DNA of 64,000 bases from assembly GCF_048403405.1 (NCBI RefSeq), contig NZ_CP183129.1. One strand, given 5' to 3'. The position numbers and the translations under genes were made by a program. This document shows positions 52,694 through 57,469 of this stretch, piece after piece (position 1 is the first letter of the stretch; every line of letters begins with the position of its first letter). This stretch comes from Escherichia coli (lineage in GTDB: Bacteria; Pseudomonadota; Gammaproteobacteria; Enterobacterales; Enterobacteriaceae). The notes under the pieces are model-generated. The model saw only the letters and a program-made list of their open reading frames with translations, ran no database searches and was not told where the DNA came from.

Positions 52694-52705
52694 GTATACA
52701 GATCG

Positions 52706-52975
52706 TGCGATCTACTGTGGATAACTCTGTCAGGAAGCTTGGATCAACCGGTAGTTATCCAAAGAACAACCGTTGTTCAGTTTTTGAGTTGTGTATAACC
52801 CCTCATTCTGATCCCAGCTTATACGGTCCAGGATCACCGATCATTCACAGTTAATGATCCTTTCCAGGTTGTTGATCTTAAAAGCCGGATCCTTGTTATC
52901 CACAGGGCAGTGCGATCCTAATAAGAGATCACAATAGAACAGATCTCTAAATAAATAGATCTTCTTTTTAATACC
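52706..52975. other. oriC: chromosomal replication origin oriC
   Basis: DnaA boxes (tgtggataa at 52716-52724; ttatccaca at 52896-52904), three AT-rich 13-mers ending in gatc (52918-52962), and 14 GATC tetramers by my count between 52701 and 52982. Confidence 0.95.
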
Positions 52976-53071
52976 CAGGATCCCAGGTCTTTCTCAAGCC
53001 GACAAAGTTGAGTAGAATCCACGGCCCGGGCTTCAATCCATTTTCATACCGCGTTATGCGAGGCAATCACC

Positions 53072-54961: not shown

Positions 54962-55024
54962 CGCATTAAAAATGCCTGGTAAGCACCCGCTTACCGGGCA
55001 ACGCATCAAGAACAGGTAATCACC

Positions 55025-55648
55025 GTGCTCAACAAACTCACCTCTCTGCTGAAAGACGCAGGAATTTCGCTTACCGATCACCAGAAAAACCAGCTAATTG
55101 CCTACGTGAATATGCTGCATAAATGGAATAAAGCGTACAACCTGACTTCGGTCCGCGATCCTAATGAGATGCTGGTACGCCATATTCTCGATAGCATTGT
55201 GGTGGCACCGTATCTGCAAGGTGAACGGTTCATCGATGTCGGCACCGGACCAGGACTGCCTGGCATTCCACTCTCTATCGTGCGTCCTGAAGCCCATTTC
55301 ACGTTGTTGGATAGCCTTGGTAAACGCGTGCGTTTCCTTCGTCAGGTGCAACATGAGCTTAAACTGGAGAATATTGAGCCAGTACAGAGCAGGGTAGAAG
55401 AGTTTCCTTCAGAGCCGCCATTTGATGGCGTAATTAGCCGCGCTTTTGCCTCTCTGAACGATATGGTGAGCTGGTGTCACCATCTTCCTGGTGAGCAAGG
55501 CCGTTTCTACGCGCTGAAAGGCCAAATGCCGGAAGATGAAATCGCTTTGTTGCCCGAAGAATATCAGGTCGAATCAGTGGTTAAACTTCACGTTCCGGCC
55601 CTGGATGGCGAACGTCATCTGGTGGTGATTAAAGCAAATAAAATTTAA
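55025..55648 (+). CDS. rsmG: 16S rRNA m7G527 methyltransferase RsmG (GidB)
   Basis: 207-aa ORF (GTG start at 55025) ...[41 protein letters not shown]...; SAM motif [10 protein letters not shown]. Confidence 0.95.
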
Positions 55649-56145
55649 TTTTTATCAAAAAAATCATAAAAAATTGACCGGTTAGACTGTTAACAACAAC
55701 CAGGTTTTCTACTGATATAACTGGTTACATTTAACGCCACGTTCACTCTTTTGCATCAACAAGATAACGTGGCTTTTTTTGGTAAGCAGAAAATAAGTCA
55801 TAAGTGAAAATATCAGTCTGCTAAAAATCGGCGCTAAGAATCATCATTGGCTGTTAAAACATTATTAAAAATGTCAATGGGTGGTTTTTGTTGTGTAAAT
55901 GTCATTTATTAAAACAGTATCTGTTTTTAGACTGAAATATCATAAACTTGCAAAGGCATCATTTGCCAAGTAAATAAATATGCTGTGCGCGAACATGCTC
56001 AATATGTGATCTGAAGCACGCTTTATCACCAGTGTTTACGCGTTATTTACAGTTTTTCATGATCGAACAGGGTTTGCAGAAAAGTCGCAATTGTATGCAC
56101 TGGAAAAATATTTAAACATTTATTCACCTTTTGGCTACTTATTGT

Positions 56146-56173
56146 TTGAAATCACGGGGGCGCACCGTATAAT
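56146..56173 (+). promoter_or_regulatory. atp operon promoter (sigma70 -35/-10)
   Basis: ttgaaa (56146-56151), 16-nt spacer, tataat (56168-56173), about 90 nt upstream of atpI. Confidence 0.65.
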
Positions 56174-56264
56174 TTGACCGCTTTTTGATGCTTGACTCTA
56201 AGCCTTAAAGAAAGTTTTATACGACACGCGGCATACCTCGAAGGGAGCAGGAGTGAAAAACGTG

Positions 56265-57469
<1,205 letters not shown>

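What the first reader, a model, noticed from the sequence alone, without database searches (positions are those of the whole stretch)
55649..56264. 616-bp A+T-rich non-coding gap between rsmG and atpI
No ORF of 60 aa or more with a credible start occupies this region. It contains at least one near-consensus sigma70 promoter (ttgaaa, 16-nt spacer, tataat at 56146-56173) and long A/T tracts. It is an unusually long intergenic stretch for this gene-dense window and could hold additional promoters, small ORFs or an sRNA that I cannot resolve by eye.
Basis: seen in the sequence. Interest (0 to 1): 0.15.

Follow-up and report, generated by a model that had tools for sequence, protein, structure and literature searches.

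The report
Length-locked control region upstream of atp
The 616-bp gap is the already-studied control region of the E. coli ATP synthase operon plus the end of rsmG, with no hidden gene. Its length and internal spacings are held almost as rigidly as those of the replication origin across enteric bacteria.

Summary
Window 55649-56264 is the 616-bp, 35% G+C, unannotated spacer between rsmG (gidB) and atpI of E. coli, and it is the longest unannotated gap in the window.

From memory it is the known major atp promoter.

I found no sRNA and no small ORF: nothing credible in Rfam, no conserved RNA fold, no conserved reading frame, no codon periodicity.

The spacer holds:
- the rsmG intrinsic terminator, strong only in Escherichia;
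- a published ArcA box (55851-55868);
- a published CRP site (56005-56020, centred 167.5 bp upstream of the inferred start);
- an 84-nt conserved leader.

Its left part is one of the 78 published H-NS-bound "promoter islands", and it is a standard chromosomal integration site.

One thing I did not find in the papers I read. In about 60 Enterobacteriaceae species the spacer stays 612-621 bp (one 597). It has about 0.4 indels per 100 bp, like oriC and unlike the neighbouring mnmG-rsmG spacer (about 6). The CRP-to-promoter distance is exactly 141 bp, even where the sequence between is scrambled. What reads this spacing is unknown.

Overall: known region, modest interest.

The parts
55649..56264 (.). 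rsmG-atpI spacer: 616 bp, 35% G+C, no annotated feature. Equals K-12 NC_000913.3 3922441-3923056.
   Evidence: Length is 612-621 bp in 57 of 58 Enterobacteriaceae species.
55549..55989 (.). Published 'promoter island' 3920739_440 atpI/rsmG (U00096.2 coordinates, converted here), reported as H-NS-bound.
   Evidence: Panyukov & Ozoline 2013, PMC3661553 Table 1. The coordinate conversion is mine.
55736..55780 (+). rsmG intrinsic terminator: hairpin 55736-55773 followed by T7 at 55774-55780.
   Evidence: Fold of -14.3 kcal/mol, z = -4.3, 0 of 200 shuffles as stable. The hairpin is kept only in Escherichia and a few relatives, and there is no consensus fold over 62 sequences.
55742..55778 (+). Weak promoter-like site inside the terminator (TTCACT 55742-47, 17 bp, TAACGT 55765-70). 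It predicts a start at about 55777, which coincides with the reported 5' ends of short secreted RNAs.
   Evidence: PWM score 8.0 bits. Markelova 2021 Table S2 gives 5' ends 3922927/3922928 on the minus strand, which is window 55778/55777. Not conserved across species.
55806..55828 (.). Conserved block GAAAATATCAGnCTGCTAAAAAT. The binding factor is unknown.
   Evidence: At least 90% column conservation in 62 sequences.
55851..55868 (+). ArcA box ctgttaaaacattattaa: two direct repeats 11 bp apart.
   Evidence: Park et al. 2013, PMC3798270 Tables S1/S3/S4, which report ChIP-chip and ChIP-seq peaks at atpI. It scores at least 6 bits in 87% of species, median 10.5 bits.
55851..55889 (-). Minus-strand promoter-like element. 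The -35 TTGACA (55877..55872) is invariant and is preceded by an A-tract (55889..55884). After a 15-bp spacer comes a -10 of TAACAT in 79% of species, but TAACAG in E. coli (55856..55851). The ArcA box fills its spacer and -10.
   Evidence: No transcript evidence was obtained.
55936..55952 (.). Conserved block AATATCAnAAaGATGAA. The binding factor is unknown.
55951..55992 (.). Sequence-variable, length-invariant block: 46% identity to E. coli and no indel in 61 species.
56005..56020 (.). CRP site TGTGATCTGAAGCACG, centred at 56012.5, which is -167.5 from the inferred start.
   Evidence: ChIP-seq motif in ETEC (PMC4287617). In vitro footprint at 3922697 (PMC12871828). Genomic SELEX, and lower atpI promoter activity in a crp mutant (PMC3105977). 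Invariant TGTGATC and GCACGCTTT.
56034..56076 (.). Conserved block GTTTTCGCGnTATTTGCAGTTTTGCa..GATCGTTCACAG, containing TTTGCA repeats and a second CRP-like half-site. It is degenerate in E. coli.
56103..56117 (.). GAAAAATATTTAAAC: a Fis-like 15-mer (G...AT-rich...C) centred at -70.
   Evidence: Conserved in all species. The Fis assignment is my inference from the remembered consensus and was not tested.
56123..56140 (-). ArcA-box-like 18-mer AAGTAGCCAAAAGGTGAA at -57 to -40.
   Evidence: 9.2 bits in E. coli and at least 6 bits in 100% of species. It lies in a region conserved for other reasons as well.
56146..56173 (+). atp operon promoter: -35 TTGAAA (56146-51), 16 bp, -10 TATAAT (56168-73). 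Inferred start at about 56180.
   Evidence: Present in 100% of 62 sequences at 12.9 bits. The start is 73 nt before the older GTG start at 56253, matching the published '73 bp upstream of uncI', which I recall from memory.
56180..56264 (+). atpI 5' leader, about 84 nt, with about 0.9 column conservation. It includes a weak internal promoter-like site, TTGACT (56192)-17-TTTTAT (56215).
   Evidence: Consensus fold energy -16.3 against -9.1 for column shuffles, z = -2.4.

Best explanation
The gap is a composite non-coding control region and contains no gene. Its first ~130 bp hold the 3' end of the rsmG transcript, which in Escherichia has an intrinsic terminator. The last ~160 bp are the strong sigma-70 promoter of atpIBEFHAGDC with its upstream A/T-rich element and an ~84-nt leader.

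The ~330 bp between them form an extended upstream regulatory region. It carries a CRP site (reported to activate), at least one ArcA box (redox control), several conserved blocks for unidentified factors, and A/T-rich DNA reported to be bound by H-NS.

Inferred, not shown: these proteins form one fixed-geometry nucleoprotein assembly on the atp promoter. That is why selection removes insertions and deletions while letting the linker sequence drift.
For: Identity and annotation.

Promoter: best sigma-70 match in the window and invariant in 62 sequences.

Terminator.

CRP: three independent published data sets place CRP on TGTGATCTGAAGCACG, and atpI promoter activity falls in a crp mutant. The site is invariant across genera.

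ArcA: ChIP peaks and a predicted box at 55851-68. The box is conserved in 87% of species. ArcA 18-mers number 5 against 0.66 expected, with 0 of 500 dinucleotide shuffles reaching that count.

H-NS.

No gene.

Fixed geometry:
- spacer 612-621 bp in 57 of 58 Enterobacteriaceae species;
- only 1-2-bp indels, and none between 55932 and 56254;
- 0.37 indel events per 100 bp, against about 0.5 for the oriC spacer and about 6 for the mnmG-rsmG spacer in the same genomes;
- CRP to -35 is 141 bp in 51 of 51 Enterobacteriaceae and 140-141 bp in 4 Erwiniaceae;
- the ATGTCAA block to CRP is 134 bp in 56 of 62, and 145-146 bp (one helical turn more) in Erwiniaceae.
Against: - A CRP site at -167.5 is far outside the classical class I/II activation positions, so how it acts on this promoter is unexplained.
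- The ArcA ChIP peaks are low (3.2-3.3), and earlier reporter work is cited as finding no ArcA or Fnr effect.
- 7-kb cassettes inserted in this gap give viable strains, so the geometry is not essential in the laboratory.
- No helical AA/TT phasing was found that would point to a curved or wrapped complex.
- E. coli itself carries degenerate copies of elements that are intact in most genera.
- I could not retrieve TSS, Term-seq, Fis or IHF data for these coordinates.
Confidence: 0.75

Rival explanations
1. The gap hides an unannotated gene, either a small RNA or a small protein, and this accounts for the conservation.
For: - Short RNAs with 5' ends at window 55777/55778 were sequenced from the E. 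coli extracellular fraction, next to a weak promoter-like site.
- An ATG at 55871 is conserved in position in 54 of 62 sequences.
- A strong minus-strand promoter-like element is conserved in most genera.
Against: - No credible Rfam match.
- The RNAalifold consensus energy is 0 in nearly every 120-nt window of the upstream 460 bp, on both strands.
- No terminator-like site apart from the rsmG hairpin.
- The longest frame open in at least 90% of species is 32 codons, and conservation shows no 3-base periodicity (1.7 against 316 for rsmG).
- The peptide from the conserved ATG varies from 9 to 26 aa and I saw no Shine-Dalgarno sequence upstream of it.
- Nothing is annotated in K-12, whose RefSeq record carries curated small genes.
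- The 55777 start site is not conserved.
Confidence: 0.07
2. The spacing constraint does not serve atp regulation. Instead the gap is a chromosome-architecture element 2.6 kb from oriC, for example an H-NS or other nucleoid-protein scaffold, a domain boundary, or a 'promoter island' kept in a silent state. CRP and ArcA would be incidental passengers.
For: - It is listed among the 78 H-NS-bound promoter islands.
- Its indel intolerance equals that of oriC in the same genomes.
- The constraint extends more than 500 bp upstream of the promoter, further than typical promoter control.
Against: - Promoter islands are described as associated with horizontally acquired genes, whereas this spacer is core and syntenic in every genus examined.
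- DnaA-box-like 9-mers are at chance level: two one-mismatch matches and none perfect.
- I counted only two GATC sites.
- The tightest invariant distance is the one between the CRP site and the -35 hexamer, which points to the promoter.
- Large insertions are tolerated.
Confidence: 0.15
3. In most Enterobacteriaceae, though weakly or not at all in E. coli, the block at 55851-55889 is an ArcA-repressed promoter. It would fire leftwards and produce an antisense transcript over the rsmG 3' end. This reading is compatible with the main explanation.
For: - Invariant TTGACA with an upstream A-tract, plus TAACAT in 79% of species; median PWM score 10.8 bits.
- The ChIP-supported ArcA box lies exactly over its spacer and -10.
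Against: - The spacer is 15 bp, which is suboptimal.
- The last -10 base is G in Escherichia and C in Citrobacter.
- No conserved product, structure or terminator lies downstream.
- The same bases are explained by the ArcA repeats themselves.
- I obtained no transcript data.
Confidence: 0.3

Closest known systems
Major promoter and leader of the E. coli atp (unc) operon (Nielsen et al. 1984, cited; position recalled from memory)
   Same: The hexamers are at 56146-56173. The inferred start at 56180 lies 73 nt before the older GTG start at 56253. It is a strong promoter and it is conserved.
   Different: Nothing differs. This part of the finding is the known promoter.
E. coli 'promoter islands' (Shavkunov/Panyukov/Ozoline)
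   Same: The left 340 bp of the gap, plus 100 bp of rsmG, is entry 3920739_440 of that published list. It is flagged as H-NS-bound, and short RNAs are reported from it.
   Different: It lies between core housekeeping genes rather than beside horizontally acquired DNA. It is conserved in length and in many blocks across more than 20 genera. A plain consensus scan does not show excess promoter-like sites.
Multi-factor upstream regulatory regions with CRP and ArcA inputs (ArcA direct-repeat architecture of Park et al. 2013; CRP targets of Shimada et al. 2011)
   Same: A published ArcA box of two repeats 11 bp apart, and a published CRP site. Both are conserved.
   Different: Both sites lie unusually far upstream, at -167.5 (CRP) and about -320 (ArcA). 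Their distances to the promoter are fixed to the base pair across families.
oriC of Enterobacteriaceae (conserved boxes separated by variable sequence of fixed length)
   Same: The same evolutionary signature in the same genomes: substitutions tolerated, indels excluded. The rate is 0.37 events per 100 bp here against about 0.5 for oriC.
   Different: There is no DnaA-box cluster, I counted only two GATC sites, and I saw no 13-mer repeats. There is no evidence of any role in replication. The resemblance is in the evolutionary pattern only.

Membership tests
Sigma-70 promoter (atp operon promoter) | -35 and -10 hexamers close to TTGACA/TATAAT, spaced 16-18 bp | tested here: met
   TTGAAA-16-TATAAT, 11 of 12 matches. 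It is the top PWM score in the 64 kb.
Sigma-70 promoter (atp operon promoter) | Conserved in orthologous position | tested here: met
   At least 6 bits in 100% of 62 sequences, median 12.9 bits.
Sigma-70 promoter (atp operon promoter) | Mapped transcription start | not testable with these tools
   The TSS tables I could reach were truncated or had no entries at these coordinates. The position matches my recollection of '73 bp upstream of uncI'.
Intrinsic (Rho-independent) terminator of rsmG | Stable G+C-containing hairpin followed directly by a U-run | tested here: met
   -14.3 kcal/mol, z = -4.3, followed by U7. The consensus scanner missed it, which I attribute to its loop/stem limits.
Intrinsic (Rho-independent) terminator of rsmG | Structure conserved in relatives | tested here: not met
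   No consensus fold over 62 sequences. The hairpin is kept only in Escherichia and a few other species.
CRP binding site | TGTGA-N6-TCACA palindrome | tested here: inconclusive
   Two mismatches in the right half (GCACG). Matches of this quality are no more frequent in the window than chance: 18 against 26 expected.
CRP binding site | CRP occupancy in vivo or in vitro | tested here: met
   From the literature: ChIP-seq motif, Footprint-seq, and genomic SELEX plus a crp-dependent reporter.
CRP binding site | Centre at a class I or class II activating position (-41.5, -61.5 ... -92.5) | tested here: not met
   The centre at 56012.5 is -167.5 from the inferred start at 56180. No convincing alternative promoter lies at the right distance on either strand.
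ArcA box | Two or more TGTTA-like direct repeats spaced 11 bp | tested here: met
   9.0 bits, using a PWM built from 114 published boxes with this site left out. Such boxes are enriched against shuffles, 5 versus 0.66.
ArcA box | ArcA occupancy in vivo | tested here: met
   From the literature: ChIP-chip and ChIP-seq peaks assigned to atpI.
Promoter island (Ozoline group) | Listed region with an extreme density of predicted start points, bound by H-NS | tested here: inconclusive
   It is listed and flagged as H-NS-bound. However, a consensus scan finds 1 site against 2.0 expected, and my PWM finds 6 against 2.5 expected from the window-wide rate. PlatProm itself was not available.
Promoter island (Ozoline group) | Association with horizontally acquired genes | tested here: not met
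   The rsmG-spacer-atpI arrangement was found in every locus that extended far enough to show it, across more than 20 genera. Only one of five foreign-gene predictors flags the region.
Small RNA gene | Match to a curated family, or a conserved secondary structure with its own promoter and terminator | tested here: not met
   The best Rfam hit has E = 0.076, to a Plasmodium family, far below the gathering score. No consensus structure was found.
Small protein gene | Conserved ORF with codon-position periodicity of substitutions | tested here: not met
Replication-origin-type element | Cluster of DnaA boxes | tested here: not met
   Two one-mismatch 9-mers and no perfect box in the gap. oriC in the same window shows three perfect boxes.

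The most novel reading that the evidence does not exclude
The rsmG-atpI spacer is a length-locked regulatory scaffold. Selection across Enterobacteriaceae, and partly Erwiniaceae, preserves base-pair-exact distances between a distal ArcA/TTGACA block, a CRP site at -167.5 and the atp promoter, while the linker sequences drift. This implies a defined higher-order nucleoprotein complex, wrapped or looped, controlling ATP synthase expression. The complex has not been described. Erwiniaceae differ by one helical turn in the ATGTCAA-to-CRP distance, which suggests that helical phase is part of what is read.
Probability: 0.4. Interest if true: 0.5.

Novelty: already known. Interest (0 to 1): 0.25.

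Why it matters
For the scan, this finding can be closed. The gap is the atp operon control region plus the rsmG terminator, and there is no missing gene.

Two side results have some value.

First, the spacer shows the evolutionary signature of oriC: fixed spacing with drifting sequence, over about 600 bp. That is unusual for a promoter-upstream region, and it suggests ATP synthase transcription is set by a geometrically defined multi-protein assembly, with CRP acting from -167.5.

Second, this spacer is widely used as a 'neutral' integration site. The conservation argues that it is not neutral, so insertions there may alter atp regulation under conditions not usually tested.

Tried and rejected
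- **Rfam**, permissive E-value search: only chance-level hits (Plasmodium RUF1, an archaeal snoRNA).
- **Terminator scan**: found nothing. The rsmG hairpin had to be folded directly.
- **Coding test**: rejected.
- **Conserved RNA structure**, both strands, 120-nt windows: rejected for the upstream 460 bp.
- **Intrinsic curvature** from AA/TT phasing at 10-11.25 bp: not above shuffles, in E. coli or across species. An 11-bp periodicity in the conservation profile was not interpretable, because the permutation null ignores autocorrelation.
- **Single ArcA repeats**: not enriched. Only the 11-bp-phased pairs are.
- **DnaA boxes**: at chance level.
- **Alternative promoter served by the CRP site**: I looked for hexamers that would place CRP at -41.5, -61.5 or -71.5 on either strand. 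None is conserved.
- **CytR-like reading** of the TTTGCA repeats between two CRP-like half-sites: noted, but dropped for lack of a promoter and of any functional link.
- **Sigma-54 and sigma-E readings** of conserved blocks: checked by eye and rejected.
- **TSS and 3'-end tables**: Thomason 2015 and Kasimoglu 1996 are not held. The Cappable-seq table is truncated before 3.9 Mb. The SMRT-Cappable-seq supplements have no entry at these coordinates.
- **AtpI homologue search**, meant to reach Yersinia, Serratia and Proteus: the 120 listed hits were all close relatives (85% identity or more), so the depth of conservation beyond Erwiniaceae remains untested.

Full report
**Identity of the region.** The window is E. 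coli chromosome. A 901-bp query spanning the finding matches 5,424 of 5,426 complete E. coli genomes, many at 100%, always under rsmG and atpI. The rsmG stop ends at 55648 and the annotated atpI ATG is at 56265, giving 616 bp. K-12 has the same 616 bp at NC_000913.3 3922441-3923056. Neither K-12 nor PGAP annotates anything there. oriC lies 2.6 kb to the left, at window 52694-53071. From the annotation of a 100%-identical strain, this is the longest unannotated gap in the 64 kb. G+C falls to 0.32-0.38, against about 0.52 in the flanks.

**The promoter.** TTGAAA-16-TATAAT at 56146-56173 is found by the consensus scan. With a PWM I built from remembered hexamer frequencies, it is the best-scoring site in the whole window. 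It scores just above two minus-strand sites at 37203 and 37084, which I recognise as rrnC P1 and P2; that serves as a sanity check on the PWM. It is present at full score in all 62 aligned sequences. A start about 7 nt past the -10 falls at 56180. That is 73 nt before the older GTG start at 56253 and 85 nt before the current ATG. This matches the classical mapping of the major atp (unc) promoter, which I recall from memory; Nielsen et al. 1984 is cited. I could not read the primary papers.

**No hidden gene.**
- Rfam at a permissive threshold gives only chance hits.
- In an alignment of 62 sequences, no frame stays open in at least 90% of species for more than 32 codons. Conservation shows no 3-base periodicity: 1.7, against 316 in rsmG and 51 in atpI.
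- The one ATG conserved in position (55871) is part of a conserved DNA block and heads peptides of 9-26 aa.
- RNAalifold on 25 diverse sequences gives a consensus energy of 0 in almost every 120-nt window of the upstream 460 bp, on both strands.

**What the literature places here.**
1. Panyukov & Ozoline 2013 list '3920739_440 atpI(-)/rsmG(-)' among 78 promoter islands and flag it as H-NS-bound in two data sets. Converted, this is window ~55549-55989.
2. Park et al. 2013 report ArcA ChIP-chip and ChIP-seq peaks assigned to atpI, and the box ctgttaaaacattattaa. This is window 55851-55868.
3. CRP is supported three ways. Haycocks et al. 2015 list the ChIP-seq motif TGTGATCTGAAGCACG at atpI. A 2026 Footprint-seq preprint lists taTGTGAtctgaaGCACGctt at 3922697. 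Shimada et al. 2011 list atpI as a new SELEX target whose promoter is less active in a crp mutant. The site is window 56005-56020.
4. Ravcheev et al. 2007 mention unpublished conserved ArcA and Fnr candidates upstream of atp, and conflicting expression data.
5. Kuhlman & Cox 2010 and others use the gap as an integration site, and 7-kb inserts are viable.
6. Markelova et al. 2021 report short extracellular RNAs with 5' ends at 3922927/8 on the minus strand, which is window 55778/55777.

**Terminator.** 55736-55773 folds at -14.3 kcal/mol (z = -4.3) and is followed by seven T. It is the rsmG terminator in Escherichia. It is not conserved as a structure in other genera, which instead show TTAAC/TTAC-like motifs at roughly 11-bp intervals there. 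A weak promoter-like site inside the hairpin (TTCACT-17-TAACGT, 8.0 bits) predicts a start at 55777, which coincides with the reported short-RNA 5' ends. Alternatively, those reads are trimmed terminator fragments. The site is not conserved.

**Comparative analysis.** One scan of the species-representative genome collection with RsmG gave 80 loci, of which 65 reach atpI.
- **Length.** The spacer is 612-621 bp in 57 of 58 Enterobacteriaceae species from more than 20 genera, 597 bp in one, and 711-816 bp in four Erwiniaceae. G+C is 0.34-0.39 throughout.
- **Indels.** The alignment needs 1,631 columns for 1,621 reference positions. All indels are 1-2 bp apart from a short run just before the ATG, several look compensated, and none falls between 55932 and 56254.
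- **Rates.** Per 100 bp, the spacer has 0.37 indel events relative to E. coli, and 0.00 over the 177 bp of 55932-56108, at 59-61% identity.
- **Controls in the same genomes.** The oriC spacer (378 bp, range 375-381) has about 0.5 events per 100 bp. The 63-bp mnmG-rsmG spacer ranges from 48 to 118 bp, with a median of 4 events.
- **Alignment-free anchor distances.** CRP TGTGA to the -35 hexamer is 141 bp in 51 of 51 Enterobacteriaceae and 140-141 bp in four Erwiniaceae. ATGTCAA to CRP is 134 bp in 56 of 62, and 145-146 bp in Erwiniaceae, which is one helical turn more.
- **Variable block.** A 42-bp block (55951-55992) has 46% identity and no indel.

**Phylogenetic footprints**.
- The last ~160 bp (56103-56264) are about 94% conserved.
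- Upstream blocks are 55806-28, 55852-89 (ArcA box plus ATGTCAAT plus GGTTTTT), 55936-52, 55993-56024 (the CRP site and its flank) and 56034-76.
- ArcA 18-mers are enriched against dinucleotide shuffles, at 5 versus 0.66 with 0 of 500 shuffles reaching the count. Single repeats are not enriched.
- Conserved ArcA-like positions are +55851 (87% of species), -55731 (74%) and -56123 (100%; this one lies at -57 to -40).
- On the minus strand, 55877..55872 is an invariant TTGACA preceded by an A-tract. It is followed after 15 bp by TAACAT in 79% of species, but by TAACAG in E. coli. The ArcA box covers its spacer and -10.
- A Fis-like 15-mer centred at -70 (56103-17) is my inference only.

**Interpretation.** The gap is the rsmG 3' end plus an extended, multi-input upstream region and leader of the atp operon. 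What I did not find reported in the papers I could read is the rigidity of its geometry. I could not identify what reads the spacing. Coding, RNA structure, A-tract curvature and DnaA boxes are excluded or unsupported. CRP at -167.5 fits no classical activation class. The laboratory tolerance of large insertions shows the geometry is not essential for viability. E. coli has let several elements decay while keeping the length.

**Verdict.** Known region and ordinary in kind. There is a moderately interesting evolutionary signature that would need a genome-wide control and phase-shift mutants to become a result.

Noticed in passing
window 52694-53071 (mioC-mnmG spacer, oriC): In the same 59 genomes the oriC spacer is 375-381 bp, with 81% identity and a median of 2 indel events. 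This served as a positive control for spacing constraint. Three perfect DnaA boxes lie at 52716, 52790 and 52896.
   Followed up: partly
window 54962-55024 (mnmG-rsmG spacer): This spacer is hypervariable: 48-118 bp across the same species, 50% identity, and a median of 4 indel events in 63 bp. That is a sharp contrast with the spacers on either side of the mnmG-rsmG pair.
   Followed up: partly
window 55725-55795 and aligned positions in L007-L082: Outside Escherichia the strong terminator hairpin is absent. The stretch instead carries TTTAAC / GTTAC / TTTTC / GTTAAC motifs at about 11-bp intervals, which score as an ArcA-like box on the minus strand in 74% of species. How rsmG transcripts end in those genera is unclear.
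   Followed up: partly
window 56044-56076: Most genera have TATTTGCAGTTTTGCA (two TTTGCA repeats) followed by GATCGTTCACAG (a TCACA half-site about 50 bp from the CRP site). This arrangement is reminiscent of CRP-CytR-CRP modules. In E. coli both are degenerate (TTTACA, TTTTCA, GAACA), yet the length is kept.
   Followed up: no
window 56180-56264: The atpI leader is about 90% conserved over about 84 nt and contains a fully conserved weak promoter-like site (TTGACT 56192, 17 bp, TTTTAT 56215). The consensus fold is only marginally better than column shuffles (z = -2.4).
   Followed up: partly
window 56120-56128: TTATTCACC is a one-mismatch DnaA-box-like 9-mer. It sits at about -60 to -52 of the atp promoter and is invariant in all 62 sequences. 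It also overlaps the region scored as an ArcA-like box on the other strand.
   Followed up: no
window 37084 and 37203, minus strand: The PWM gives TTGTCA-16-TATAAT and TTGACT-16-TATTAT as the third and fifth best sites in the window. I recognise these as rrnC P1 and P2, in the 481-bp gap between yieP and the 16S gene.
   Followed up: no
window 56253 versus 56265: There are two in-frame atpI starts: GTG at 56253 (130 aa, the older annotation) and ATG at 56265 (126 aa, the current one). Most non-Escherichia species carry a 1-bp deletion at about 56255, which bears on which start is used.
   Followed up: no
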